A DNA stretch of 64,000 nucleotides. Origin: Acidobacteriota bacterium. GTDB lineage: Bacteria > Acidobacteriota > Blastocatellia > Pyrinomonadales > Pyrinomonadaceae. The notes below the pieces were generated by a model. That model was not told the origin of the DNA and did no database searches. It saw only the letters and a list, made by a program, of their open reading frames with translations. This document shows positions 8,922 through 60,586 of this stretch, piece after piece. The stretch covers positions 5,121 through 69,120 of the forward strand of contig JBDTZO010000124.1 in assembly GCA_040005135.1 (NCBI GenBank), written 5' to 3'. The translations under genes and the position numbers were made by a program. The stretch's first letter is position 1. Each line of letters begins with the position of its first letter.

Positions 8922-10003
8922 TGATAAAATGCCAGGCTGCCGTGATCGATTGGACGGCCGTTCGGCGAGTGCTCGTCATTCGACTCCGCTCGATCGGTGA
9001 CACGGTGCTGGCCACTCCGTCGCTGATCGCCCTCAGACGGTTCCTGCCTCATGCGAAAATAGATATCCTGCTCGAAAATTGGGTCGCTCCTGTACTCGAT
9101 GGATTTGACGCGGTCGATAATGTAATCACCGTCGGCAAAGGTTCGAGCGAACGGATAAAAACCGCATTCGATCTGCGTCGGCTCGGATACGACATTGTCT
9201 TTAATCTGCACGGCGGCACGACCTCTACCTTTTTTACCGCCGCGACGCGAGCGAAACACCGTGTCGGTTATGCCAATTATCAATATTCCGTTCTCTACAA
9301 TCGGCTTCTGTCTTCGTCGTCGGATTTCTGGCAACAGGAAAAAACGCACTCCGCTGAACAGCAGCTTGCCTTGCTCGGTTTCGTCGGTGTGCCTGTCGAT
9401 GATCGGCCAAAGACACGGCTTGAAGTAACGTCACAGGCAAGCGAGTCGCTGGAACATAAGCGCAACGCAACGACGCACAGACCCCAAAGTTTTGTCGACG
9501 CCCCCTATGCACTCTTCCATCCAACAAGTGCTTTTTTCACCAAGCAATGGGCGACTGAAAACTTCGCCCAGACGGCAGAGTTCCTGGCTGGCAGGGGCAT
9601 CCACACCATAGCCATCGCGTCAAAAAACGAAAACGAGGTTCTCTATGATCTTCAACGTGAATCGCGTGTTCCGATTTCGACATTTGATGACCTAACTCTT
9701 CCCGAGGTTACCGCTCTCGCGTCGAAAGCGGAAATTTTCGTCGGTAACGACTCGGGCATCGCCCATATCTCTGCGGCCGTCGAGACGCCATCTGTAGTGA
9801 TCTTCGGCTCCTCAAGCCGCCAACATTGGCGGCCGTGGACTGACGCACCGAATGAGATAGTTTTTCGCGAATTTTCTTGCCAGCCGTGTGCAGGCTACGC
9901 CTGCAAGGCGTTTGTCGAGCCGCGTTGCATTCTTAGTGTCCAGACATCGGACGTATTTGCCGCGATCGACCGCGTTCTCGGCGAAAAAAAAGCGGGCTCG
10001 TAA
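8921..10003 (+). CDS. Glycosyltransferase family 9 (LPS heptosyltransferase-like)
   Basis: VLVIRLRSIGDTVLATPSLIALRRFLP and FVGNDSGIAHISAA blocks. The start is moved from the track's 8849 to the in-frame ATG at 8921 (MIKCQAAV), which abuts the Trm112-like stop. Confidence 0.8.
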   Translation: MIKCQAAVIDWTAVRRVLVIRLRSIGDTVLATPSLIALRRFLPHAKIDILLENWVAPVLDGFDAVDNVITVGKGSSERIKTAFDLRRLGYDIVFNLHGGTTSTFFTAATRAKHRVGYANYQYSVLYNRLLSSSSDFWQQEKTHSAEQQLALLGFVGVPVDDRPKTRLEVTSQASESLEHKRNATTHRPQSFVDAPYALFHPTSAFFTKQWATENFAQTAEFLAGRGIHTIAIASKNENEVLYDLQRESRVPISTFDDLTLPEVTALASKAEIFVGNDSGIAHISAAVETPSVVIFGSSSRQHWRPWTDAPNEIVFREFSCQPCAGYACKAFVEPRCILSVQTSDVFAAIDRVLGEKKAGS

Positions 10004-10011
10004 AAGCCCGC
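9984..10011 (-). terminator. Intrinsic terminator for the minus-strand BON gene
   Basis: On the minus strand it reads GCGGGCT-TTTACG-AGCCCGC followed by TTTTTTTT. The hairpin lies inside the last codons and stop of the convergent GT9 gene. Confidence 0.55.
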
Positions 10012-10037
10012 ATCGGAACAAAAACCCAACTACGAGA

Positions 10038-10607
10038 CTACTTTTTATTAGCGTTCGAATGCTCCATGTTGGCGTTGCCCGACATGTTGGTCATCGAATC
10101 ATTCGGTGCGACCTTAAGCTCATTTACGACCTTTTTTTTGCCTTCGATACCGTTAGCAACCTGTTCGGCCTTGGCTTTTTGAGCAGCGTTTGCGACGGTG
10201 CCCTTAAGCGTGATTACATCGTTGACCACGTCGACATTGATCGTGGATTCCCGCAGGTCGCTGGTGGTGAGCAGTGCAGCCCGAGTTTTGAACCATAGCC
10301 AACTATCGTTTACTCCGGTTCCGATCGTGCTCACTCCTTTTTCCTTCTCGTAGTCAGCACGGCTTTTGTCGTACTCTTCGCGGCTCACGTTTGCGTCGTT
10401 CCAGCGATTGGTAGCGATGTTAGAATTAGAATTGACGAGCACCGCGTTCGAACTGGAGTTGTTAGTGCCCATGTTCGTCATTGCGTTCGTACTGCGATTC
10501 GCGTTGACCGAGACGTTCGTTGAAGATTCGCCGCAGCCCGCGAGAACACTGGAAGCGACCAGAACGGCGACTCCTAAATAAAATTTCACAGTCATAAGTT
10601 TCTCCAT
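10038..10607 (-). CDS. BON-domain lipoprotein (OsmY-like)
   Basis: Signal plus LAGC lipobox, an Asn/Ser-rich linker, then the BON block INVDVVNDVITLKGTVANAAQKAKAEQVANGIEGKKKVVNELKV. Confidence 0.8.
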   Translation of the reverse strand: MEKLMTVKFYLGVAVLVASSVLAGCGESSTNVSVNANRSTNAMTNMGTNNSSSNAVLVNSNSNIATNRWNDANVSREEYDKSRADYEKEKGVSTIGTGVNDSWLWFKTRAALLTTSDLRESTINVDVVNDVITLKGTVANAAQKAKAEQVANGIEGKKKVVNELKVAPNDSMTNMSGNANMEHSNANKK

Positions 10608-13604: not shown

Positions 13605-14318
13605 ATGAAGATCGACGTTTTAACAATTTTCCCAGAGTTCTTTGAGCAGGTCTTTGATTTTGGAATCATTCGCCGGGCAAGACTCGCTAAAATAGTCGAG
13701 ATCGGGATTCACGACATCCGCGATTTTGCGACCGACAAGCATCGAATGGTAGACGATCGGCCGTTTGGCGGCGGCGACGGGATGGTCTTCAAGCCCGAAC
13801 CCATTTTTGCCGCGATCGAGAATTTGTTAGGGACGAGCGAACCCGAATCGTATCCGGCAGGCACCCGTGTTGTGCTGCTATCGCCGCAGGGTAGGCCATT
13901 TAAGCAGGGTGTGGCGACCGAATTCGCCCAGGAAGCAACGCATATCGTCATGATTTGCGGCCGTTACGAAGGAATCGATGAAAGAGTGAATGAGACGCTC
14001 GTCACAGATGAGATATCGATCGGCGATTACGTTCTCTCAGGTGGCGAACCAGCGGCAGTAGTGATGGTCGATTCAATAGTTCGGCTTTTGCCTGAGGCCT
14101 TAGGTAGCGGAACGTCTGCTGCCAACGACTCTTTCTCGGACGGATTGCTCGATTGTCCGCACTATACAAGGCCGGCCGAGTTTAGAGGGATGAGAGTCCC
14201 CGAAGTTTTACTTAACGGCAATCATGCCGAAATTGAAAAATGGCGCAAGTCCAAAGCGCTCGAAAAAACGAGGTCGTCGAGAGGCGATCTATTATCAGGA
14301 GATAAGGGTGACATGTGA
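13605..14318 (+). CDS. trmD: tRNA (guanine37-N1)-methyltransferase
   Basis: [46 protein letters not shown]. The start is set at the conserved MKIDVLT. Confidence 0.93.
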
Positions 14319-14357
14319 ACGGCTCAATATGCCGCTGACCTCTGGCCCGCTACAAAA

Positions 14358-14723
14358 ATGAATAGATTAGACGGTGTCGAAGCGACACAAATGAAAGAAT
14401 CAACTCCGGTTTTCCAGCCTGGCGATACGCTCCGTGTTCACGTCCGTATCAAGGAAGGGAATAAGGAACGTTTGCAGGCCTTTGAAGGCGTTTGTATCGC
14501 CCGCAAGCACGGAGGTGTTCGCGAAACCGTTACGGTCCGTAAGGTAAGCTTTGGCGTTGGCGTCGAGCGTATCTTTCCGCTCCATGCGACAGTGGTCGAT
14601 CACATCGACGTGATCCGTCATGGTAAAGTGCGTCGTGCAAAGCTCTATTACCTTCGCGATCTGCGTGGTAAGGCTGCCCGTATCAAGGAACGCGATACAC
14701 GCGGTAAAGCCAAAAAGGCGTAA
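14358..14723 (+). CDS. rplS: 50S ribosomal protein L19
   Basis: [39 protein letters not shown] and [20 protein letters not shown]. Confidence 0.95.
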
Positions 14724-14742
14724 CCCGTCAGGAGAAAAAGAA

Positions 14743-15459
14743 GTGAAAAACGCGAGAGTTTCGGATTCATTCGGTTTGGGTGAGTCCGAGCCTCGCGTTT
14801 CTCTTTTTGAAGATGTCGTCATTGACGGTATCGGGCTGATATTTGAAAGGCTTGCGGTAGACGAAGGGTTTCGCTACGTCGCGGGCCTCGACGAAGTTGG
14901 CCGCGGCTGTCTCGCTGGTCCGGTTGTCGCCGCTGCCTGTATTCTGGATCACGATAAACGGCTGCCGGACGGACTCGACGACTCCAAAAAACTCACGGCT
15001 AAGAAACGCGAAGAGATCGCCGCTGAGCTAAAAAATAACTGCGTCGCATATGCCGTAGGTCAGATCGAGGCCGATGAGATCGACCGGATCAATATTCTGG
15101 AGGCTACCAAACAAGCGATGCTGATCGCCATCGCCGGCCTTTCGCCATCGGCGGATTATTTGTTGATCGACGCGCTCCGCTTAAAACAAAGCCCGCTCAG
15201 GCAAAAATCGATCATCAGAGGAGATGGCATTTCGGCCTCGATCGCTGCCGCATCGATCCTCGCAAAGGTGTTTCGGGATGCTCTGATGACCGGATATCAC
15301 GACGAATTTCCACACTATGGGTTCGCCGGGCACAAGGGCTACGCCGCTGCGACCCATTATGCCGCCCTTCGCGAGCACGGACCGTGTAGGATCCATCGAA
15401 TGAGTTTTCGAGGAGTTGTGACAGATCAGAATTCGATCCAGTCCGTCGGTTCCTTATGA
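14743..15459 (+). CDS. rnhB: Ribonuclease HII
   Basis: VAGLDEVGRGCLAGPVVAAACIL, DSKKLTAKKRE, ASIAAASILAKV. I chose the GTG at 14743, preceded by AGGAGA, so the ORF does not overlap rplS. The exact start is uncertain. Confidence 0.85.
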   Translation: MKNARVSDSFGLGESEPRVSLFEDVVIDGIGLIFERLAVDEGFRYVAGLDEVGRGCLAGPVVAAACILDHDKRLPDGLDDSKKLTAKKREEIAAELKNNCVAYAVGQIEADEIDRINILEATKQAMLIAIAGLSPSADYLLIDALRLKQSPLRQKSIIRGDGISASIAAASILAKVFRDALMTGYHDEFPHYGFAGHKGYAAATHYAALREHGPCRIHRMSFRGVVTDQNSIQSVGSL

Positions 15460-16256
15460 TGTGAGATCGTTACAGTAGTTTCGGCTCTGAAAAGCGGGGA
15501 ACGCATCTGCAATGCGGACTCGGCCATCAGTCGGGCAAGATGAGGTTCGTTGGCCCTTTGGGATAGGTGAGCGAGCACGACGTAGCGGGCAGATCCGTCA
15601 AAGTCGTTTTGCAGCCAGTCGGCGAGATCCTCGTTCGAGAGGTGTCCGGTCCGGGAGAGAATCCGCTGCTTGAGTTCCCACGTGTAAACCGAACACGCCC
15701 GCAGCATGTCGCGGCTGTGGTTCGATTCGATAACTATCGCGTCGCATCGGCACAGCCGCTCTTTAATAAGATCGGTCATGTGGCCAAAATCCATCAGGGT
15801 CGCGATCCTCAAGCCGTCCTTTTTTGCTACAAACCCAAAATTATCGGCCGCGTCATGCGGCACACAGAACGGTTCAAAATCGAGATCGCCAATTCGGAAC
15901 TCTTGGTCGGATTCTATCTCAATGGTGCGGCCTTTCAGCGAAACCTGACGTTTGGACGATTCACTGCTGCCATTCGCCCCACCGGCCCGTGTGTCGTAGA
16001 AGGAGTCTTCGGTCGCTCGAGAGATGTAGACGGGACATGTCACCGAATTGAGCAGCACCCGCAGCCCTCCGGCGTGATCGCTATGTTCATGGGTGATGAG
16101 AACCGCGTCGAGGTCCTCACGATCGACGCCGACAAGAGCTAGCCGACGCAAGATCTCTCGGGCGCTCATTCCGGCATCCACGAGGACGTTAGTCTTTTCG
16201 GTGGATATCAAGACCGAATTGCCGGTCGAGCCGCTGCCGAGAACGGTGAATCTCAT
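15426..16256 (-). CDS. MBL-fold metallo-hydrolase (YycJ/PhnP-like)
   Basis: MRFTVLGSGSTGN and ITHEHSDHAGG (HxHxDH). Confidence 0.85.
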   Translation of the reverse strand: MRFTVLGSGSTGNSVLISTEKTNVLVDAGMSAREILRRLALVGVDREDLDAVLITHEHSDHAGGLRVLLNSVTCPVYISRATEDSFYDTRAGGANGSSESSKRQVSLKGRTIEIESDQEFRIGDLDFEPFCVPHDAADNFGFVAKKDGLRIATLMDFGHMTDLIKERLCRCDAIVIESNHSRDMLRACSVYTWELKQRILSRTGHLSNEDLADWLQNDFDGSARYVVLAHLSQRANEPHLARLMAESALQMRSPLFRAETTVTISHHKEPTDWIEF

Positions 16257-17038
16257 TTATCTCCCTGAAACTTGGGCCTCAAGGCCTTGGCCATTGCCCG
16301 TGTAGTAATTGCGTGGGGCACGTATCCGCCGAGGAACGCACCAAGCTTATTAGCAAGGCCGGAAACGACCTTTCTTCGCCCGCTTTTAATTGCGCTCATC
16401 GCTGTTTCGATGACGTCATCGACGGACTGCTGACCCTTGACCTGAATGGGCCGCTCGATGTTGGACGCGGCAAAAAAATTGGTCTTGGTCGATCCGGGAC
16501 ACAAGGCGAGCACTTGGATCCCGTATGGTGCATTTTCTTCGGCGATCGCCTCAGAAAACGACGAGACAAAAGCTTTGGTCGCCGCGTACGTAGCCATGAA
16601 CGGTATCGGTTGAAAGCCGGCGGCCGATGACACATTTATTATCTTGCCGCCTTTGCGTTCGCGCATCGGGCCGAGATATCGGTGCGTCAGTGCCACGAGC
16701 GAGCGAATATTCAGATCGATCATCTGCAGTTCCGTGCCCCGATCAAGTTTGGCAAAATCACCGCTTGAGCCGAACCCGGCGTTATTTATGAGCCATTCGA
16801 CTTCAAATCCATGTTTTTCCGTCTCGGCCCACAACGTCGCATCCGCGTCCGGATCGGTCAGGTCTAGCACCACATAGTGCGCAGTTATATGATGCTTTAG
16901 CATTAATTCGTCACACAGTTCATGCAGGGCCATTTCCGAGCGCGCAACAAGCAAGAGATTATGTTGTTCGGCCGAGAGCCGACGTGCAAAGGCCTCACCT
17001 ATTCCGCTCGATGCACCAGTGATCAGCGTTACTTTCAT
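16253..17038 (-). CDS. SDR-family oxidoreductase
   Basis: TGASSGIGEAFARRL, NNAG, YAATKAF. ATGA overlaps at both ends suggest translational coupling. Confidence 0.9.
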   Translation of the reverse strand: MKVTLITGASSGIGEAFARRLSAEQHNLLLVARSEMALHELCDELMLKHHITAHYVVLDLTDPDADATLWAETEKHGFEVEWLINNAGFGSSGDFAKLDRGTELQMIDLNIRSLVALTHRYLGPMRERKGGKIINVSSAAGFQPIPFMATYAATKAFVSSFSEAIAEENAPYGIQVLALCPGSTKTNFFAASNIERPIQVKGQQSVDDVIETAMSAIKSGRRKVVSGLANKLGAFLGGYVPHAITTRAMAKALRPKFQGDK

Positions 17039-17562
17039 ATATCTTCGGCCTCTTCGTCGGGCTTACGAAACGAAAAATAAATTGCCATGAGGATCGCAAC
17101 TATTATAATTACCGTTCCAGCGAATCTGATAACCTTTGCGACGCCCTTTGTCGAATCGAGCAGGCCCGTTGCGGTCAGCAAATAATTCCAATCGTGAAAG
17201 CTGCCTTCGCTGCCTGTAAAGCCGCTCGTCAGCACCAATTGCCCAACAATCGCGTCCGAGGCATAGACCCACACGTTCAAGATACTTTGGCCCACCCAAA
17301 GCACTAGGATCGCAGCGGAATAATAGCTCCGCTGCCAAAAAGCGAAATAAGCCGCAAACACTGCCGGGAAGATCACCTGGAACAGTGAACCGCCCGCGAC
17401 CATCAAAAATTCGCCGAATGGTCTGAACAACAGGTGGCCCGTTTCGTGGATCGGTAGATCGACGTTGTCCAAAAAACTGCCCTGCATCGGATCGTACGCG
17501 ATCCAGAGAATATAAATGCTCGCGATGGCCGCAAATATCAGTTTTGGCACATTGGGCTTCAT
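17035..17562 (-). CDS. Small polytopic membrane protein with an HExxH motif (putative membrane metalloprotease-like)
   Basis: Five or six hydrophobic segments, with LPIHETGHLLF after the first. I could not confirm a family by eye. Confidence 0.55.
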   Translation of the reverse strand: MKPNVPKLIFAAIASIYILWIAYDPMQGSFLDNVDLPIHETGHLLFRPFGEFLMVAGGSLFQVIFPAVFAAYFAFWQRSYYSAAILVLWVGQSILNVWVYASDAIVGQLVLTSGFTGSEGSFHDWNYLLTATGLLDSTKGVAKVIRFAGTVIIIVAILMAIYFSFRKPDEEAEDI

Positions 17563-55521: not shown

Positions 55522-56043
55522 ATGCTCAAAAGTTTACTGGCTCTCTCGTTCGTCTTGGTTTCTGCCCCTATGGCTCTGTCGCAAAGCAAGAGTGTCTACA
55601 CCTCACTCGCGGCTGACAAGTGCAAGACGGTTTCGCTTAACGCGGGGATGGCAGGTAATGCCACGACAAGATGCGATGGCGTTGGCGGATACAAACTGGA
55701 ATTTTACCTGGACGACGGCCGAAACTCCATCGGAGTCGTTCTACCGTCCGAAAAAACGGCCGGTCTCGACCTCTGGGATCACTTCAGCAATTTTTCCGAG
55801 CTTGGCGAAACGGCCGAATGGAGGATAAAAGGAAAGAAACCCGTGGCGTTGATCGTCAGGCTGAAAGTTTCCGACAAAGGCGATGAAGGGTCGCCGAGCT
55901 CCTACCTTATTGTTTCCAAGCTGAACCGCACGACCGCCTGTGTAACGGACATCGTGAAACCCGGAAAAGGCCAGAACGCCAAAGCCCAGGGCCTGGCGGA
56001 CAGAGCCCTGTCGCGGCCTTGTAAAAAAGCAGGACGGCACTAG
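55522..56043 (+). CDS. Hypothetical secreted four-Cys protein
   Basis: The start is set at MLKSLLALSFVLVSAPMALSQ (signal peptide). No family recognised. Confidence 0.55.
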   Translation: MLKSLLALSFVLVSAPMALSQSKSVYTSLAADKCKTVSLNAGMAGNATTRCDGVGGYKLEFYLDDGRNSIGVVLPSEKTAGLDLWDHFSNFSELGETAEWRIKGKKPVALIVRLKVSDKGDEGSPSSYLIVSKLNRTTACVTDIVKPGKGQNAKAQGLADRALSRPCKKAGRH

Positions 56044-56229: not shown

Positions 56230-57300
56230 ATGAACAGATCATCTCGAACCGGCGTTAAAACCACTTTGGCAGCTATCGCCGCCGCATTCATTTGCACGGT
56301 GTTCACATTTACCGTAAACGCACAGTCGGACACAGGCCAACCCCTTACCGCAACCAAGCTGGAGGCCCTTGTACAAGAACTAAAAGGGGTCGTGGCGCGG
56401 GCCGCCCCGGAGGCGGGCGAGGCAGCTATGGTCGCCCGGAAATGGGATGCCCGACGTGATCTTACTGGCAAGACAAAGCTTGACGTGATCAACCTCCTTT
56501 TCCAGGATGTTAGGTCGTCTGTTAAAGATTCGGGGACTCAGTATCAGATCAGTTCCATCTTTGGGATGTACAAGATGATGCCGGATGACGCGATCGTAGC
56601 AGAAACGCCGAAGGCCAAATCCAATATCTCAAAACCCGCTGCGGTCAAAAAACTCGTTGAGCTGACCTACCGAAAGCATCCGTACGTCGGGATCGAAGAG
56701 ACGTTAAAGGCACTTCCCGGACCCAAACCCGACAAAGCCGCAGAGGATAAAGCCAGGACTGAGCGAATTGCCGGCTTTAATGAAGCACTGAAAATTAATG
56801 ATCAGTTAACCGCCGCTCAAAAATCGTTCGTCCGCCAGAATTACGACTTTGTCGAAAAACTGGTCGATTCAGTCACCGCAACCGCGATCAGTAAGAACTT
56901 CCCGACCGAGCAATGGATCAAAGAAGGTTTAGGGAAAAGCTACACAAGTAAATTCACTCCCACCGAACGCAACAGCTTGATCGTATATTTTCAGGGAAAG
57001 GCAGGTGAGCGAGTTTTGGAATACGTCAGGGTCATGGAAATGCGGGCGTTGATCGTCAATAACGGCGGAGCGACGACCGGATTCACAATAGCGGAAAAAG
57101 GGGAACACCGCAGATTTATCAACACGCCGCTCGGCAAAAGATTCATCGCCGCCTATTTACGAGAAGCGGTAGCGTATGAGGAAAGCAAAGAGAACGCGGT
57201 CAGAGCTGCCGATCCCGATGCCGACGGGTTTGCGATCTACAGGACGGAAAACCTGAACAAACTGTTCAATAAATTTGTCGCCGACAATTACAAGAAATAG
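56230..57300 (+). CDS. Hypothetical secreted protein
   Basis: Signal/anchor segment (LAAIAAAFICTVFTFTVNAQ) and a largely helical, Lys/Glu-rich body. No family recognised. Confidence 0.55.
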   Translation: MNRSSRTGVKTTLAAIAAAFICTVFTFTVNAQSDTGQPLTATKLEALVQELKGVVARAAPEAGEAAMVARKWDARRDLTGKTKLDVINLLFQDVRSSVKDSGTQYQISSIFGMYKMMPDDAIVAETPKAKSNISKPAAVKKLVELTYRKHPYVGIEETLKALPGPKPDKAAEDKARTERIAGFNEALKINDQLTAAQKSFVRQNYDFVEKLVDSVTATAISKNFPTEQWIKEGLGKSYTSKFTPTERNSLIVYFQGKAGERVLEYVRVMEMRALIVNNGGATTGFTIAEKGEHRRFINTPLGKRFIAAYLREAVAYEESKENAVRAADPDADGFAIYRTENLNKLFNKFVADNYKK

Positions 57301-57376
57301 TGGTTCGATTTTTTCCGAACCGCTTGTCCGAAACCAGCCATACGCTGGAAAATCAGTTACAGGGAGAAACTATCAA

Positions 57377-57805
57377 ATGAAAAAAGCAGTTTACTTTTCG
57401 CTCGCTCTCATTCTATTCGGGCTTGCATCGGCGGAGAATGCATTTGCCTGCAGTTGCGTCGCGAGCCCGGATCCCGCAGAAACGCAGATCCGGGCTGCAT
57501 TCAGCAACTCCGAAGCGATCTTTTCCGGCAAGGTAGTCGAGATCAAAGAGTCTCCGGCAGATCCTACCAGAATGATCGTCAGGATCAAGCTCGCACACTC
57601 GTGGAAAGGCTCGGCGAAACGCGAGATCTTTATTTCGACGGCGAAAGAAAGCTCGATGTGCGGCTACCTTTTTCAGGTCGGGCAAAAATATCTGGTTTAC
57701 GCCAACCAGAACAAGAACGATCTTTGGGTACAGAACTGTTCCCGCACGGCCGTCTTCAGCGACAAAGGCGATGCCAACTATCTGTCGAAATTAAAGCGCA
57801 GGTAA
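57377..57805 (+). CDS. Secreted TIMP/NTR-like protein (N-TIMP-like OB-fold, CxC N-terminus)
   Basis: The ATG at 57377 is preceded by GGGAG. The signal peptide ends AFA, followed by CSCVASPDP..AFSNSEAIFSGKVV...SSMCGYLFQVGQKYLVYA...WVQNCS. See the findings for the comparison with TIMP-1 and TIMP-2. Confidence 0.6.
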   Translation: MKKAVYFSLALILFGLASAENAFACSCVASPDPAETQIRAAFSNSEAIFSGKVVEIKESPADPTRMIVRIKLAHSWKGSAKREIFISTAKESSMCGYLFQVGQKYLVYANQNKNDLWVQNCSRTAVFSDKGDANYLSKLKRR

Positions 57806-57855: not shown

Positions 57856-58290
57856 ATGATTAAAACATTCAAAAAGACGAACAGCCGGACCGCCGCGGTC
57901 ATAACTTGGGTATTCGTGGTTTTAATGTTCGGTTTGACCGCTATGGCTCAGACCGAGCAGGAAAAAAGTGCCGAACTCCCCACGCGCATCCGCAGCGCGG
58001 CAACCGTAAGCGGTAACACTGGCGGTGAGTCGCACGACAGCTATGTCGTAACAGCACGTAAAGGCCAGACCCTCAAGGTCCAGATCTCATGGCAAACAGA
58101 AGACACTAATAAAGCTCAGTTCGTCGTCAGCAGATCGCCTGACTTTTTTGCCGGCGACCTGGTCGAGGGTGGCAGGGAAACGTACGATGGCAAGAACTGG
58201 GCGGGCAAGGTCGCCAAAACCGGCGATTATTACATCTACGTCACCGCTCACCCGCAAGCAAATTACAAGCTCAAAGTTACAGTTAAATAA
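57856..58290 (+). CDS. Hypothetical secreted beta-sandwich protein (pre-peptidase C-terminal domain-like, tentative)
   Basis: Signal/anchor segment, then DSYVVTARKGQTLKVQI...TGDYYIYVTAHPQANYKLKVTV, a PPC-like pattern. Confidence 0.5.
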   Translation: MIKTFKKTNSRTAAVITWVFVVLMFGLTAMAQTEQEKSAELPTRIRSAATVSGNTGGESHDSYVVTARKGQTLKVQISWQTEDTNKAQFVVSRSPDFFAGDLVEGGRETYDGKNWAGKVAKTGDYYIYVTAHPQANYKLKVTVK

Positions 58291-58351
58291 AAGATAGCGG
58301 ATAAACGAGAAACGGTTGTATAGGCGTGGCTTGCGGCGTTATATTGGGAGC

Positions 58352-60586
58352 ATGTATACGTGCACCTCCGCAGTTCGGCGCTTTTCCCTGAAGCTGCCCA
58401 TAGTATCGGGATTTCCCGCTTTGTTACTGATCATTTTCGCTCTCTCGTCTGCGGCTTTTGCGGTCGGCGATGCGGCTGAGAATGCGCGTTGGCAGCGGCA
58501 TTCGGCGAACGTCTCGATCGTCCGAGACGATTGGGGTATCGCGCATGTGGCGGGCAAGACCGACTCGGACGCCGTGTTCGGTGCGATATATGCTCAGGCA
58601 GAGGACGATTTTAACCGGATCGAGGTCAATTATCTGAATTCCTTGGGACGCATGGCCGAGGCCGAGGGCGGCGGCGCGGTGTGGAACGATCTACGTCAGC
58701 GGATGTTCGTCGATTCGGACAAGCTCAAAACGGACTATGCCGCTTCGCCGGCGTGGCTGCAAAAGCTGATGACGGCGTGGGCTGACGGACTCAATTTCTA
58801 TCTTTCGACGCATCCCGCAACAAAGCCGCGTGTGCTGACGCACTTCGAGCCGTGGATGGCGCTCAGCTTTACCGAGGGCAGCATCGGCGGCGACATCGAG
58901 TCGATCAATTTGAAACAGCTAGCCGCTTTTTACGGCGGCGACCGCGCTGCGGCGGCGGTCGCGGACAATACGGCCTACGACCCTTTCAAGGAACCGACGG
59001 GATCGAACGGCATTGCGATCGCGCCGTCAAATACCAAAAACAAACACGCATTGCTCCTCATAAATCCGCATACATCGTTCTTTTTCCGCTCTGAGCTGCA
59101 GATGACGAGCCGCGAAGGGCTCAATGCTTACGGAGCCTCGACGTGGGGTCAATTCTTTATCTATCAGGGATTTAACGACAATTGCGCCTGGATGCACACG
59201 ACGAGTGCCGCCGACCGTATCGACGAATTTCTCGAAACCGTCGTTACAAAAGGTGGCCAGTCATTTTACAGTCACGGCGGTCGCGACATGCCTTTCACAA
59301 CGTCTGAGATCAAACTGAGCGTTCGAACGAAAGATGGATCGCAGGAGCGCACGTTTACGGTTTACCGCACGCCTCACGGTCCTGTCGTGCGTAAACTGGG
59401 CGACAAGTGGGTCACGGTCAGCCTGATGAACAAACCCGTCGATGCACTGGTCCAATCTTATTCGCGGACCAAGGCCCGGAATCTCGATGAATTTAAGTAC
59501 GTCATGCAGCGGCACGCCAATTCATCAAATAACACGATCTATGCCGACCGTGACGGCCACATAGCGTTTTTTCATGTGAATTACATGCCGCGGCGCGATC
59601 CGCGATTTGACTGGACCAAGCCCGTCGACGGTTCAGATCCGGCAACGGACTACAAGGGCCTACTCACATTCGAAGAGTCGCCAAACCTGATCGACCCGCG
59701 GAGCGGATGGCTGTATAACAGTAATAATTGGCCGTGGTCGAACGCCGGCCGGAGCAGTCTGCGGCAGGCCGATTATCCAAAATATGTCGACAACGGCGTC
59801 GAATCTGCCCGCGGCCTCCACGCGATCAAGGTGCTTGAGAACAAACGCGATTTCACGCTCGAAACTCTGCGGGCCGCCGCATATGACAGCTATCTGACGT
59901 GGTTCGACAAGCCGCTGCCGGCTCTCATAAAGGCGTGGGACTCCACTCCCGCCGCCAGTAAGTTGAAAACACGAACGTCGGAGCAGCTCGCGATGCTCAA
60001 GGCTTGGGACCACCGTTGGTCGGTCGATTCGGTGCCGACGTCGCTAGCCATTTTTTGGGGCGAGGATATGGTCCGCCGCATTGGTGCCGACGCCCAGCGT
60101 GCCGGACTCTCGGCAGAGGAATACATCGCGACGCGGTCGACGCCCGACCAAATGCTCCAGTCATTTGCTGCCGCCAGCGACCGGCTGACGGCCGATTTTG
60201 GCAAATGGCGGACGCCGTGGGGCGAGATCAACCGCTTTCAGCGGCTGAACGACGACATCGTCAATCCGTTCAGCGACGCCGCCCCGAGCATTCCGGTCGG
60301 ATTCACGTCGTCGATCTGGGGCTCGCTCGCGTCCTTCGGCGCCAGGCCATATAACGGCTCGAAACGTATTTACGGCACGAACGGAAACAGCTTTGTCGCC
60401 GTGGTCGAATTTGGACCTAAGATCCGCGCCCGCGCGATCACGGCCGGCGGCGAGAGCGGTGATCCTAATTCCAAACATTTTGACGATCAGGCGGAGCGGT
60501 ATGCGACCGGCAACCTCCGCGACGTCTATTTTTATCCGGCCCAGCTAGAGGGTCACACCGAACGCCAATACAGGCCGGGTGAATGA
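58352..60586 (+). CDS. Penicillin-acylase-family (S45) Ntn hydrolase
   Basis: Signal peptide, IVRDDWGIAHVAGKTD, the autoprocessing site PTG-SNGIAIAPS, and a size of about 745 aa. Confidence 0.88.
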   Translation: MYTCTSAVRRFSLKLPIVSGFPALLLIIFALSSAAFAVGDAAENARWQRHSANVSIVRDDWGIAHVAGKTDSDAVFGAIYAQAEDDFNRIEVNYLNSLGRMAEAEGGGAVWNDLRQRMFVDSDKLKTDYAASPAWLQKLMTAWADGLNFYLSTHPATKPRVLTHFEPWMALSFTEGSIGGDIESINLKQLAAFYGGDRAAAAVADNTAYDPFKEPTGSNGIAIAPSNTKNKHALLLINPHTSFFFRSELQMTSREGLNAYGASTWGQFFIYQGFNDNCAWMHTTSAADRIDEFLETVVTKGGQSFYSHGGRDMPFTTSEIKLSVRTKDGSQERTFTVYRTPHGPVVRKLGDKWVTVSLMNKPVDALVQSYSRTKARNLDEFKYVMQRHANSSNNTIYADRDGHIAFFHVNYMPRRDPRFDWTKPVDGSDPATDYKGLLTFEESPNLIDPRSGWLYNSNNWPWSNAGRSSLRQADYPKYVDNGVESARGLHAIKVLENKRDFTLETLRAAAYDSYLTWFDKPLPALIKAWDSTPAASKLKTRTSEQLAMLKAWDHRWSVDSVPTSLAIFWGEDMVRRIGADAQRAGLSAEEYIATRSTPDQMLQSFAAASDRLTADFGKWRTPWGEINRFQRLNDDIVNPFSDAAPSIPVGFTSSIWGSLASFGARPYNGSKRIYGTNGNSFVAVVEFGPKIRARAITAGGESGDPNSKHFDDQAERYATGNLRDVYFYPAQLEGHTERQYRPGE

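What the first reader, a model, noticed from the sequence alone, without database searches (positions are those of the whole stretch)
57377..57805. Secreted bacterial protein that looks like the inhibitory N-domain of animal TIMPs, with Cys-x-Cys exactly at the predicted signal-peptidase site
The ORF encodes the signal peptide MKKAVYFSLALILFGLASAENAFA, followed directly by CSCVASPDPAETQIRAAFSNSEAIFSGKVVEIKE. Human TIMP-2, from my memory, starts [24 protein letters not shown], and TIMP-1 starts [23 protein letters not shown]. Two further blocks line up: ISTAKESSMCGYLFQVGQKYLVYA against [26 protein letters not shown], and WVQNCS against HITLCD. The mature protein has Cys at positions 1, 3, 71 and 97, which match the TIMP-1 disulfides C1-C70 and C3-C99. 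The third N-domain disulfide is absent, with AFCN replaced by AFSN. In TIMPs the free alpha-amino and carbonyl groups of Cys1 chelate the catalytic zinc of metzincins. An Ala-x-Ala cleavage that exposes Cys1 therefore matters for mechanism and is unlikely to be chance. The protein is N-domain only, about 119 aa mature. No metzincin gene is present in this window, so the target is unknown. I know of no functional characterisation of bacterial TIMP-like proteins.
Basis: partly seen in the sequence, partly recalled or inferred. Interest (0 to 1): 0.78.

Follow-up and report, generated by a model that had tools for sequence, protein, structure and literature searches.

The report
Bacterial TIMP-like secreted protease inhibitor
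A soil Acidobacterium encodes a small exported protein that is a true relative of the inhibitory half of animal TIMPs, belongs to a very large uncharacterised bacterial family, and sits beside a lysozyme-inhibitor homolog, which suggests it protects the cell envelope from zinc proteases.

Summary
ORF 57377-57805 (+) encodes 142 aa: a signal peptide ending Ala-Phe-Ala, then Cys-Ser-Cys. It scores above Pfam's TIMP (PF00965) threshold. A profile built only from bacterial relatives finds only TIMPs in the PDB, with all four Cys in register with TIMP-2 C1/C3/C72/C101. The AlphaFold model's best 16 PDB matches (18 of the best 20) are TIMPs.

The gene is one of a very large family: 7,385 clusters at E<=1e-10, in at least eight phyla. 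In 148 of 150 diverse representatives CxC lies near the N-terminus. Position -1 is Ala in 143, position -3 is small, residue 2 is Ser or Thr in 131, and only 8 fit a strict lipobox.

No metallopeptidase gene was found in the window. The next gene downstream (57856-58290) is a PliG-family homolog (inhibitor of g-type lysozyme). TIMP-like domains are fused to it and to two other neighbour families in other genomes. A minority of related loci carry a secreted DUF4344 metallopeptidase, an RHS toxin tip or a T6SS cargo protein with HExxH nearby.

Best reading: an exported TIMP-mechanism zinc-peptidase inhibitor in an envelope-protection cluster. Inhibition and target are inferred. Databases already label the family; I found no paper on it.

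The parts
57362..57367 (+). Shine-Dalgarno-like GGGAGA, 9 nt before the ATG
   Evidence: Read directly from the sequence. It supports ATG 57377 as the start rather than the upstream TTG at 57275 listed. Homologs also start at MKK.
57377..57805 (+). TIMP-family (PF00965) N-domain-only gene: 142 aa precursor, 118 aa predicted mature protein
   Evidence: NCBI names it 'hypothetical protein ABJA02_08120', Acidobacteriota MAG.
57377..57448 (+). Sec signal peptide (aa 1-24): n-region MKK, hydrophobic core, c-region ENAFA with Ala at -3 and -1
   Evidence: Sequence. Family-wide, -1 is Ala in 143 of 148, -3 is small or uncharged in 145 of 148, and a strict lipobox is present in 8 of 148. The AF2 model shows a helix at residues 4-17 with low pLDDT.
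57449..57457 (+). Cys1-Ser2-Cys3 of the predicted mature protein; corresponds to the zinc-chelating N-terminus of TIMPs
   Evidence: Aligns to TIMP-2 C1-S2-C3. In 127 representatives C1 is present in 126, C3 in 127, and residue 2 is Ser in 107 and Thr in 7.
57650..57664 (+). S-S-M-C-G connector (mature Ser68 to Gly72, with Cys71), equivalent to TIMP-2 S-A-V-C72-G. This is the second half of the inhibitory ridge and the disulfide partner of Cys1.
   Evidence: Alignment to TIMP-2 'TAPSSAVCG'. Family conservation: S68 in 92, A69 in 94, C71 in 126 and G72 in 121 of 126.
57737..57739 (+). Cys97 (mature numbering), equivalent to TIMP-2 Cys101 and partner of Cys3
   Evidence: 126 of 126.
57856..58290 (+). 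Adjacent gene, 50 nt downstream: exported 144-aa PliG-family homolog (inhibitor of g-type lysozyme). Fused to TIMP-like domains in other genomes.
   Evidence: The family profile finds only PliG structures in the PDB (E 9.5e-5 to 1e-3). AF2 model pLDDT is 78, and the Foldseek top hit is Aeromonas PliG 4dzg at E 6.8e-7. There is a weak Pfam PPC hit. Fusions: P0040, P0283 (=L009), P0287.
56230..57300 (+). Adjacent gene, 76 nt upstream: exported 356-aa protein ('P356') of unknown function with a DUF2059-like stretch. It is the most constant neighbour of the TIMP-like gene in Pyrinomonadaceae-type loci.
   Evidence: Neighbour clustering found it in about a dozen related loci. PDB profile hits to DUF2059 proteins at E 0.0015. 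Its N-terminal module is fused to TIMP-like (P0039) and to PliG-like domains (P0262, P0278).
55522..56043 (+). Exported 173-aa Cys-containing protein ('S174') of unknown function, a recurrent member of the same neighbourhood
   Evidence: Found next to the TIMP-like gene in L001, L007, L008 and L009 as well as the window. No Pfam, NCBIfam or PDB sequence match.

Best explanation
The gene encodes a Sec-exported, single-domain bacterial member of the TIMP/NTR family.

Shown:
- It is homologous to animal N-TIMPs in sequence and in predicted fold.
- Its four Cys are the ones that form the C1-C70 and C3-C99 type disulfides that pin the TIMP N-terminal segment to the barrel.

Inferred from family-wide conservation:
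- Signal peptidase I cuts after Ala-Phe-Ala, so Cys1 becomes the first residue of the mature protein.

Inferred from the established TIMP mechanism:
- The free alpha-amino and carbonyl groups of Cys1 chelate the catalytic zinc of a metallopeptidase.
- Ser2 points into S1'.
- The disulfide-linked S-S-M-C-G connector fills the non-primed side, giving a tight 1:1 complex.

Inferred from context:
- The protein works in the periplasm or just outside the cell as part of an envelope-protection set of small exported proteins, including a PliG-like lysozyme inhibitor.
- It neutralises zinc peptidases that would damage the envelope. These could be foreign (secreted proteases of competitors or predators, or delivered toxins) or the cell's own secreted enzymes, such as the DUF4344 peptidase that lies next to it in sister genomes.
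- The actual target in this organism is unknown.
For: Homology:
- Pfam PF00965 hit above the curated threshold.
- A bacterial-only profile retrieves only TIMPs from the PDB, with all four Cys in register.
- AF2 model pLDDT 84; the Foldseek top 16 are TIMPs, with TM 0.73 to N-TIMP-1.

Mechanistic features conserved over a huge family:
- 18,359 clusters at E<=1e-3 and 7,385 at E<=1e-10.
- A(-1), C1, S/T2, C3, the S-A-x-C-G connector, [WY]KG and C97 are near-invariant.
- 144 of 150 representatives have CxC at residues 13-46, directly after an AxA-type site.
- The same holds in about 80 genomic loci from Acidobacteriota, Bacillota, Cyanobacteria, Planctomycetota, Actinomycetota, Lentisphaeria, Bacteroidota and Thioploca.
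- In tandem-domain proteins the first domain always keeps A|CxC, while inner domains can lose all the Cys.

Literature:
- The N-domain alone suffices for inhibition, and single-domain TIMPs exist in helminths (PMC3679795).
- One extra N-terminal Ala abolishes TIMP activity (PMC2871463). This would explain selection for cleavage exactly before Cys1.

Context:
- The downstream neighbour is PliG-like.
- There are true fusions of TIMP-like domains with the PliG-like, 'Ivy-like' and P356 modules.
- A secreted DUF4344 putative metallopeptidase lies 19-870 nt away in L003, L007, L009 and L010, with a remnant in L001.
- HExxH ORFs are enriched within 2.5 kb (18/631 versus 8/875, odds ratio 3.2, p=0.008).
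Against: - No inhibition assay exists for any member.
- An NTR fold with an N-terminal Cys is not sufficient: PCPE-1 NTR trimmed to start at its Cys does not inhibit MMP-2, BMP-1 or ADAMTS enzymes (PMC2871463).
- No metallopeptidase gene lies in the 64-kb window.
- 59 of 67 related loci with full flanks have no HExxH ORF nearby, and several of the 18 nearby HExxH ORFs are spurious or cytoplasmic.
- Bacillota copies are stand-alone genes.
- DUF4344 lacks the HExxHxxGxxH motif of metzincins, the only known TIMP targets (motif HELGHCLID...EED).
- The cleavage site is not proven. This clade has a second AxA (ASA|E) upstream, and no SignalP run or N-terminal sequencing was possible.
- Disulfide geometry could not be measured because model coordinates are not exposed.
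- The third TIMP N-domain disulfide is missing.
Confidence: 0.6

Rival explanations
1. The protein is a dedicated immunity or orphan-immunity protein against zinc-metallopeptidase toxins that rival bacteria deliver into the periplasm (RHS, T6SS or T4SS effectors). The mechanism is TIMP-like, but the target is foreign toxins rather than housekeeping or secreted proteases.
For: - L036: an RHS protein ends in a toxin tip with HEQFH. An orphan copy of that tip (HERSH, E 1.6e-21 to the RHS tip) ends 3 nt before a TIMP-like gene, which is the slot where immunity genes sit.
- L001: the TIMP-like / S174 / 'Ivy-like' trio abuts a T6SS VgrG-PAAR module. Its 603-aa cargo protein has a C-terminal HEMAH...H.
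- DUF4344, the peptidase found next to TIMP-like genes in four loci, is listed as a toxin domain of bacteria-killing X-T4SS effectors (PMC6536674).
- The neighbours are inhibitor-like periplasmic proteins (PliG-like).
Against: - Only two of about 154 loci show a polymorphic-toxin or T6SS context.
- The toxin tips have no Pfam match, and peptidase activity is inferred from HExxH alone.
- In L036 the homologous full-length tip is followed by an unrelated 171-aa secreted protein, so the TIMP-like gene may be an insertion.
- The window itself has no toxin gene.
- The family is far more widespread than any one toxin family.
Confidence: 0.15
2. The protein is a non-inhibitory NTR/OB-fold binding module. 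It uses the disulfide-stapled barrel to bind a polysaccharide, peptidoglycan or a partner protein, as non-TIMP NTR domains do, and the CxC is purely structural.
For: - Most NTR modules (PCPE, netrins, sFRP, complement C345C, agrin NtA) are not protease inhibitors, and they are the next-best fold matches.
- PCPE-1 NTR starting at Cys is inactive on metzincins and binds heparin-like ligands (PMC2871463).
- No partner protease is present in most loci.
- Fusions to other small domains could reflect scaffold roles.
- The tail is basic (KLKRR).
Against: - This reading does not explain why Ala(-1)|Cys1 and Ser/Thr2 are conserved across phyla, or why only the first domain of tandem proteins keeps CxC.
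- Sequence and fold are closer to TIMPs proper than to any other NTR class.
Confidence: 0.17
3. The protein is a lipoprotein, or its N-terminal CxC is a reduced metal-binding (Cu/Zn) site. In either case Cys1 is acylated or acts as a thiolate ligand and does not provide a free amine.
For: - Cys directly after a signal peptide is the hallmark of lipoproteins.
- 8 of 148 representatives fit a strict lipobox.
- Listeria Tim is a lipoprotein (PMC8235301).
- Some periplasmic OB-fold proteins are metallochaperones (from my own knowledge, e.g. CusF).
Against: - In this protein -5 to -1 is E-N-A-F-A: charged and polar residues before the site and Phe at -2, which a lipobox does not tolerate.
- In the family -2 is Tyr or Phe in 91 of 148 and -3 is mostly A/S/T.
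- The four Cys co-vary as a set and align with disulfide-bonded Cys of TIMPs.
- Bacillota members are anchored by a C-terminal transmembrane helix instead, which would be redundant with lipidation.
Confidence: 0.05

Closest known systems
Animal TIMPs (MEROPS I35, Pfam PF00965), specifically the inhibitory N-domain (N-TIMP-1/2/3) and the single-domain TIMPs of nematodes
   Same: - Same Pfam family, with a score above threshold.
- Same OB/NTR fold.
- CxC is the first residues after the signal peptide, and residue 2 is Ser.
- The Cys equivalent to the C1-C70 and C3-C99 pairs are present.
- The 'T-A-x-x-S-x-x-C-G' connector, '[WYF]-K-G' and 'Y-L-[IV]' blocks are conserved.
- Like helminth TIMPs, it has no C-domain (PMC3679795).
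   Different: - Bacterial, and probably periplasmic.
- Only two disulfides; the C13-C124 equivalent is absent.
- Only about 20-25% identity to TIMPs.
- No MMP, ADAM or other metzincin partner has been identified.
- Neighbours are lysozyme-inhibitor-like genes, not matrix genes.
- Activity is untested.
Serralysin inhibitors of Gram-negative bacteria (Pseudomonas APRin, Erwinia/Serratia Inh; MEROPS I38)
   Same: These are small periplasmic proteins, made with a Sec signal peptide, that protect the producer from a zinc metzincin. Their processed N-terminal residues insert into the active site and approach the zinc, much as TIMPs do. The similarity of the interaction is noted in PMC8235301; the structural details are from my own knowledge.
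   Different: The fold is unrelated (an eight-stranded barrel with no CxC). They are encoded in the protease operon, whereas the window gene has no protease partner.
Listeria monocytogenes Tim / Mtz pair (PMC8235301)
   Same: This is the only bacterial protein described as TIMP-like in the searchable literature. It is exported and is paired with a metzincin.
   Different: - Tim resembles TIMPs in predicted structure only ('not in sequence').
- It is a lipoprotein with an LTAC lipobox.
- It is cleaved by Mtz about 50 residues in and released.
- Its effect is sensitisation of the cell wall, and inhibition was not shown.
Potempin A of Tannerella forsythia (PMC9890683)
   Same: A small bacterial OB-fold inhibitor of an MMP-like metzincin (karilysin) and of MMP-12.
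   Different: It is an outer-membrane lipoprotein encoded directly upstream of its protease. It uses a 'bilobal' mechanism that does not involve the N-terminal amine, and the authors state that its structure is otherwise unrelated to TIMPs.
Periplasmic lysozyme inhibitors PliG / Ivy / MliC
   Same: They share the same logic and the same neighbourhood. They are small Sec-exported proteins that neutralise lytic enzymes reaching the periplasm. The window's next gene is a PliG-family homolog, and PliG-like and TIMP-like domains occur fused (background in PMC3458809).
   Different: Different folds and different target class (muramidases rather than zinc peptidases).

Membership tests
TIMP family (Pfam PF00965 / MEROPS I35) | Significant match to the family HMM above its curated threshold | tested here: met
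   30.8 bits against a cutoff of 23.1, E 3.1e-7, covering profile positions 2-114 of 183, which is the N-domain. The precomputed tables also give PF00965 for many relatives.
TIMP family (Pfam PF00965 / MEROPS I35) | OB-type NTR fold of the N-domain | tested here: met
   AF2 model pLDDT 84, core above 90. The Foldseek top 16 PDB hits are all TIMP-1/2/3, best E 4.2e-8, TM 0.73 normalised to N-TIMP-1.
TIMP family (Pfam PF00965 / MEROPS I35) | Cys1 is the first residue of the mature protein, giving the free alpha-amine that chelates zinc | tested here: inconclusive
   Comparative evidence is strong: Ala at -1 in 143 of 148, small residue at -3 in 145 of 148, and CxC at residues 13-46 in 144 of 150. 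However, no signal-peptide predictor or protein data were available, and this clade has an alternative ASA|E site.
TIMP family (Pfam PF00965 / MEROPS I35) | Disulfides Cys1-Cys70 and Cys3-Cys99 (TIMP-1 numbering) | tested here: met
   C25/C27/C95/C121 align to TIMP-2 C1/C3/C72/C101. They are invariant in 24 relatives and present in 126-127 of 127 representatives. Bond geometry in the model could not be measured.
TIMP family (Pfam PF00965 / MEROPS I35) | Third N-domain disulfide (Cys13-Cys124) | tested here: not met
   The mature protein has only four Cys, and AFCN is replaced by AFSN. The whole bacterial family lacks this pair.
TIMP family (Pfam PF00965 / MEROPS I35) | C-terminal domain with three further disulfides | tested here: not met
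   The protein ends 118 residues after Cys1, and the profile match stops at position 114 of 183. Helminth TIMPs, accepted family members, also lack this domain (PMC3679795).
TIMP family (Pfam PF00965 / MEROPS I35) | Small hydroxyl residue at position 2 (S1' probe) and the Ser-x-x-Cys-Gly connector of the inhibitory ridge | tested here: met
   Ser2 in this protein; family Ser in 124 and Thr in 7 of 148. The connector S-S-M-C-G corresponds to TIMP-2 S-A-V-C-G.
TIMP family (Pfam PF00965 / MEROPS I35) | Tight-binding inhibition of metzincin metalloproteinases | not testable with these tools
   This needs enzyme assays. No metzincin gene lies in the window.
Bacterial lipoproteins (SPase II substrates) | Lipobox [LVI][ASTVI][GAS]C with an uncharged preceding stretch | tested here: not met
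   The window protein has E-N-A-F-A-C. Only 8 of 148 family representatives fit the strict pattern.
PliG family (for the adjacent gene 57856-58290) | Sequence and fold similarity to solved PliG proteins | tested here: met
   The family profile hits only PliG chains 4dy5, 4dzg, 4dxz and 4dy3 (E 9.5e-5 to 1e-3). The Foldseek top hit is 4dzg at E 6.8e-7, although PPC and collagen-binding domains score nearly as well. Lysozyme inhibition is not testable here.

The most novel reading that the evidence does not exclude
TIMPs may not be an animal invention. They may be the metazoan branch of a very large, essentially unstudied bacterial family of exported inhibitors that expose Cys1 through signal peptidase (at least 7,000 clusters at 50% identity, at least 8 phyla). 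In bacteria these would act as envelope-defence or immunity proteins against zinc-peptidase attack. They would sit in the same gene clusters, and sometimes the same polypeptides, as lysozyme inhibitors, and in some genomes in the immunity slot behind RHS or T6SS metallopeptidase toxins.
Probability: 0.25. Interest if true: 0.85.

Novelty: new variant of a known kind. Interest (0 to 1): 0.62.

Why it matters
- Papers on TIMP evolution treat the family as metazoan: 'an ancient eukaryotic protein family' (PMC4860685), and PMC10755359 surveys only metazoans. A search of 8 million papers found no use of 'bacterial TIMP' or 'prokaryotic TIMP'.
- The family is nevertheless very large in bacteria and keeps exactly the features that make TIMPs work.
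- If these proteins inhibit zinc peptidases, three things follow. Bacteria would have a new, widespread class of metalloprotease inhibitors. There would be a testable origin story for TIMPs. And there would be a pool of small, two-disulfide N-TIMP scaffolds for engineering selective metalloprotease inhibitors.
- The link to PliG-like genes suggests a broader 'periplasmic inhibitor island' that shields soil bacteria from lytic enzymes. That idea can be tested with simple knockouts and protease or lysozyme challenge.

Tried and rejected
- NCBIfam gave no model for the protein or for any neighbour.
- tblastn against phage and plasmid collections found nothing relevant, so the gene is not obviously mobile. 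Foldseek against viral structures gave nothing at E<=1e-3.
- The weak Pfam DUF4131 hit (E 0.0024, below threshold) and the weak HasA hits in the PDB (E about 0.06) were set aside as chance or generic fold resemblance.
- The 'Ivy' (PF08816) label on the neighbour in L001, L002 and L005 comes only from the precomputed table. hmmscan and a PDB profile search did not reproduce it, so I do not rely on it.
- The promoter/terminator scan of 54.8-58.5 kb found nothing above shuffled controls, so the operon structure is undecided.
- Looking up the window's own contig in the contig index failed: only a 1-kb Logan fragment is indexed. The 10 kb of the 74-kb contig outside the window could not be inspected.
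- In Bacillota the most frequent 'neighbour' is an ABC-transporter ATPase with a two-component system. I judged this to be paralog noise or lineage synteny.
- The 'RHS-like' ORFs in L125 and L018 turned out to be FG-GAP/VCBS-type repeat proteins, not toxins.
- S174 gave no hit by any method.
Full report
**1. The observation**

ATG is at 57377 and TAA at 57803-57805, with a GGGAGA Shine-Dalgarno-like hexamer 9 nt upstream. The mechanical ORF list extends it to a TTG at 57275. That extension overlaps the end of the upstream gene and is not conserved in relatives, which start at MKK. The product is 142 aa: MKKAVYFSLALILFGLASAENAFA followed by CSCVASPDPAET.... After the predicted cleavage it has four Cys, at mature positions 1, 3, 71 and 97, and is 118 aa long.

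**2. Is the TIMP resemblance real?**

Yes, by three independent tests.

- *Pfam.* The TIMP model (PF00965) matches residues 24-128 to profile positions 2-114 of 183 with 30.8 bits. The curated cutoff is 23.1 and E is 3.1e-7.
- *PDB sequence search.* Pfam's model may already contain bacterial sequences, so I built a profile from 24 bacterial relatives only (alignment A1) and searched all PDB sequences. All 15 hits at E<=1 are TIMP-1, -2 or -3 (best 2e-4). The alignment runs from Cys1 to the fourth Cys with C25/C27/C95/C121 on TIMP-2 C1/C3/C72/C101.
- *Predicted fold.* An AlphaFold2 model (mean pLDDT 84, core above 90) was searched with Foldseek against the PDB. The best 16 hits are TIMP-1/2/3, led by N-TIMP-1 in complex with MT1-MMP (E 4.2e-8, TM-score 0.73 on the target). 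Of the best 20, 18 are TIMPs; the other two are the PCOLCE NTR domain at rank 17 and, further down the list, agrin NtA, complement C345C and meteorin.

No bacterial structure of this family exists in the PDB.

**3. The family**

The protein is annotated 'hypothetical protein ABJA02_08120' in an Acidobacteriota MAG. A Bacillus-group relative carries the automatic UniRef name 'Tissue inhibitor of metallopr...'. A full HMMER scan of 1.84 billion cluster representatives with the A1 profile found 18,359 clusters at E<=1e-3, 7,385 at E<=1e-10 and 81 at E<=1e-30.

One degenerate peptide pattern alone recovered 75 loci in GTDB genomes. They come from Acidobacteriota (Pyrinomonadaceae, Blastocatellia), many Bacillota (Sporosarcina, Lysinibacillus, Paenibacillus, Lederbergia, Viridibacillus and others), Cyanobacteria, Planctomycetota, Rubrobacteraceae and Nitriliruptoraceae, Lentisphaeria, Bacteroidota (Lacibacter) and Thioploca. 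A further 80 metagenome loci were recovered the same way. The gene is not on phages or plasmids.

**4. Is Cys1 the mature N-terminus?**

I could not run SignalP, so I used comparison across the family. In the 150 best representatives, each less than 50% identical to the others:

| Feature | Count |
|---|---|
| CxC within the first 80 residues | 148 of 150 |
| CxC at residues 13-46 | 144 of 150 |
| Position -1 is Ala | 143 of 148 |
| Position -3 is A/S/V/T/I/G/L/C | 145 of 148 |
| Position -2 is Tyr or Phe | 91 of 148 |
| Strict lipobox [LVI][ASTVI][GAS]C | 8 of 148 |
| Residue 2 is Ser / Thr | 124 / 7 of 148 |

(All.)

This is the signature of a signal peptidase I site placed exactly before Cys1. 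Such conservation across phyla is hard to explain unless that bond is the one cut.

In the window protein -5 to -1 is E-N-A-F-A, which does not fit a lipobox. A caveat for this clade is a second AxA (ASA|E) five residues upstream. It is not conserved outside the clade.

Bacillota members add a linker and a C-terminal transmembrane helix with a basic tail, which leaves the N-terminal domain free outside the membrane.

In proteins with two or three tandem TIMP-like domains, the first always has A|CxC. Inner domains vary, and one has lost all four Cys together. That pattern fits disulfide pairs rather than independent thiols.

**5. Conservation of the inhibitory ridge**

Over 127 aligned representatives the near-invariant positions are Ala(-1), Cys1, Ser2, Cys3, F25-x-G27-x-V29, W52-K53-G54, Thr64, S68-A69-x-C71-G72-[YF]-x-F75, Y81-L-V-Y-A85, C97-S-R-T100, D108 and L112.

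In TIMPs the wedge that enters the protease cleft is made of the N-terminal segment Cys1 to Pro5 and the connector before Cys70, which are joined by the Cys1-Cys70 disulfide. Residue 2 probes S1' (established knowledge; PMC3679795; PMC9890683). Both halves of that wedge are conserved here.

The N-domain alone inhibits, and helminth TIMPs are single-domain. Adding one Ala to the N-terminus abolishes TIMP activity (PMC2871463).

The same paper supplies the main caveat. The PCPE-1 NTR domain, engineered to start at its first Cys, inhibits none of the metzincins tested. Fold plus an N-terminal Cys is therefore not proof of activity.

**6. Genomic context in the window**

Pfam scans of 52 ORFs across most of the 64 kb show ordinary chromosomal genes:

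- ATP synthase, Ffh, RimM/TrmD and monomeric isocitrate dehydrogenase;
- PurE/PurK, glycosyltransferases and a rhomboid;
- an S41-like peptidase, penicillin amidase and a Ser/Thr kinase.

No metallopeptidase family was found. Only three ORFs of 80 aa or more contain HExxH. One is a methyltransferase, and the 174-aa ORF at 17035-17562 has no Pfam match.

The gene lies in a same-strand run of exported proteins with short gaps:

| Coordinates | Gene | Notes |
|---|---|---|
| 55522-56043 | S174 | No similarity to anything known |
| 56230-57300 | P356 | A DUF2059-like stretch, |
| 57377-57805 | TIMP-like | The finding |
| 57856-58290 | 144-aa protein | See below |
| 58316-60586 | Penicillin amidase | |

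The 144-aa protein gave only a weak Pfam PPC hit. A profile of its family, however, finds only the four PliG (inhibitor of g-type lysozyme) sequences in the PDB, at E 9.5e-5 to 1e-3. Its AF2 model (pLDDT 78) has Aeromonas PliG as best Foldseek match at E 6.8e-7. Salmonella and E. coli PliG are also among the top hits, alongside the related PPC and collagen-binding sandwiches. I read it as a PliG-family homolog.

**7. Context in relatives**

In Pyrinomonadaceae-type loci the same small exported families recur around the TIMP-like gene, in shuffled order:

- P356;
- the PliG-like protein;
- S174;
- a 165-aa lipoprotein;
- a 145-aa protein that the precomputed tables call Ivy (PF08816), a label I could not reproduce;
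- a secreted DUF4344 'putative metallopeptidase' (HELGH...EED) in L003, L007, L009 and L010, 19 to about 870 nt from the TIMP-like gene, with a 66-aa remnant in L001.

Public protein sets also contain true fusions in which the second module has lost its signal peptide:

- TIMP-like + PliG-like (P0040, P0283 = L009, P0287);
- TIMP-like + 'Ivy-like' (P0045);
- TIMP-like + P356 N-module (P0039);
- P356 N-module + PliG-like (P0262, P0278).

Shuffled co-location together with this fusion network argues that these proteins work together.

Outside this clade, credible metallopeptidase neighbours are sporadic:

- an M4-like 590-aa protein (L066/L150);
- a PF04228 zinc peptidase (L091);
- a 792-aa protein with HEAAHNYGLSHG, a metzincin-type motif, in Thioploca (L074).

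HExxH ORFs of at least 150 aa are enriched within 2.5 kb: 18 of 631 versus 8 of 875 at 2.5-10 kb, odds ratio 3.2, Fisher p=0.008. Several of the 18 are spurious or cytoplasmic, and 59 of 67 loci with full flanks have none. Bacillota copies are stand-alone genes. There is no obligatory protease partner.

**8. Two suggestive loci**

*L036 (Acidobacteriota MAG)* is a textbook RHS array:

1. An RHS core ending DPTGMV is followed by a tip with HEQFH.
2. A 171-aa secreted protein follows.
3. Next is an orphan tip homologous to the first (HERSH, phmmer E 1.6e-21).
4. A TIMP-like gene starts 3 nt after that orphan tip.
5. A third tip fragment and a second copy of the 171-aa gene follow.

*L001:* the TIMP-like / S174 / 'Ivy-like' trio converges on a T6SS VgrG-cargo-PAAR module. 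The 603-aa cargo protein ends with HEMAH...H. None of these tips has a Pfam match.

DUF4344 is listed among the toxin domains of bacteria-killing X-T4SS effectors (PMC6536674).

These observations suggest, but do not establish, that some family members serve as immunity proteins against delivered zinc-peptidase toxins.

**9. Interpretation**

*Shown:*
- The gene is a bona fide TIMP-family N-domain homolog with the two N-terminal disulfide Cys pairs.
- It belongs to a very large bacterial family.
- It is embedded among exported proteins, one of which is PliG-like.

*Inferred with good support:*
- Signal peptidase I exposes Cys1.

*Inferred by homology:*
- It inhibits a zinc metallopeptidase by the TIMP wedge mechanism.

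*Inferred from context, weaker:*
- Its role is envelope protection in the periplasm, against foreign enzymes or the cell's own secreted enzymes.

*Unknown:*
- The target.

Rival readings are given with their tests in the rival-explanations section: a non-inhibitory NTR binding module, a dedicated toxin-immunity protein, and a lipoprotein or metal site.

**10. Novelty**

The homology is already captured by automatic annotation (PF00965 in the precomputed tables; the UniRef name). It is therefore not categorically new. I found no paper that describes or tests these proteins:

- 'bacterial TIMP' and 'prokaryotic TIMP' occur nowhere in the library.
- TIMP evolution papers treat the family as eukaryotic or metazoan.

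I rate it a new variant of a known kind: a bacterial, two-disulfide, N-domain-only TIMP with signal-peptidase-exposed Cys1 and a lysozyme-inhibitor neighbourhood. It is of real interest for the origin of TIMPs and for bacterial protease control.

Noticed in passing
window 57856-58290 (+): The 144-aa exported protein 50 nt downstream is a PliG-family homolog (inhibitor of g-type lysozyme). Its family profile hits only PliG chains in the PDB, and its AF2 model's best Foldseek match is Aeromonas PliG. NCBI calls it hypothetical (ABJA02_08125).
   Followed up: yes
public proteins P0040, P0283 (=L009:2177-2926), P0287, P0045, P0039, P0262, P0278: There is a fusion network among the neighbour families: TIMP-like+PliG-like, TIMP-like+'Ivy-like', TIMP-like+P356 N-module and P356 N-module+PliG-like. 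The second modules lack signal peptides, so these are real fusions rather than read-through.
   Followed up: partly
L036:3088-11256: This is an RHS polymorphic-toxin array whose toxin tips carry a conserved HExxH (HEQFH / HERSH). An orphan tip ends 3 nt before a TIMP-like gene (9995-10549). A different 171-aa secreted protein follows the full-length tip and occurs twice. A second, 491-aa TIMP-like protein with CarboxypepD_reg repeats lies at 14030-15505.
   Followed up: partly
L001:11541-17766 (-) next to L001:10001-11480 (+): A T6SS VgrG / 603-aa cargo / PAAR module converges on the TIMP-like / S174 / 'Ivy-like' trio. The cargo protein has a C-terminal HEMAHILISMVH and no Pfam match.
   Followed up: partly
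L010:1625-2488, L009:2972-3787, L003:11060-11929, L007:8193-9056; remnant L001:9667-9867: A secreted DUF4344 putative metallopeptidase (HELGHCLID...EED) lies beside the TIMP-like gene in four Pyrinomonadaceae-type loci, with gene order shuffled between loci. DUF4344 is also listed as a toxin domain of X-T4SS effectors (PMC6536674).
   Followed up: partly
L001:11034-11480, L002:10928-11365, L005:8026-8451: A neighbour family of 142-148 aa has an invariant G-C-x4-C loop. The precomputed Pfam table labels it Ivy (PF08816), but hmmscan here and a PDB profile search give no Ivy match. The discrepancy is unresolved.
   Followed up: yes
L016-L079 (Bacillota loci), e.g. L020:9977-10573: Bacillota family members carry a linker and a C-terminal transmembrane helix with a basic tail. 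They are membrane-tethered with a free N-terminal domain, and they are stand-alone genes without protease neighbours.
   Followed up: partly
representatives P0034, P0043, P0049, P0073, P0094, P0095: These proteins have two or three tandem TIMP-like domains. The first always keeps A|CxC. Inner repeats are preceded by CxxC or have lost all four Cys.
   Followed up: partly
L074:7488-9866 (-): In a Thioploca MAG a 792-aa ORF with HEAAHNYGLSHG (the metzincin HExxHxxGxxH pattern) is divergently placed 117 nt from a 275-aa TIMP-like gene. It has no Pfam or NCBIfam match.
   Followed up: partly
window 55522-56043 (+) and 56230-57300 (+): Two exported proteins of unknown function lie upstream. S174 has invariant Cys and no match anywhere. 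P356 has a DUF2059-like stretch. Both recur next to TIMP-like genes in related genomes.
   Followed up: partly
window 17035-17562 (-): A 174-aa ORF with HETGH has no Pfam match. It is one of only three HExxH ORFs in the window and lies among housekeeping genes, 40 kb from the finding.
   Followed up: no
window 57302-57321: There is a perfect 7-bp inverted repeat (GGTTCGA TTTTTT CCGAACC) directly after the stop codon of P356 and 56 nt before the TIMP-like start. On the + strand it has no T-tail, and the terminator scan was not above shuffled controls.
   Followed up: partly
L003:8415-9245 and L004:212-1042: An SLT-domain (lytic transglycosylase) gene lies two genes upstream of the TIMP-like gene in the closest relative's locus. 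This may be relevant if the PliG-like and 'Ivy-like' neighbours control glycosidases of this fold.
   Followed up: no
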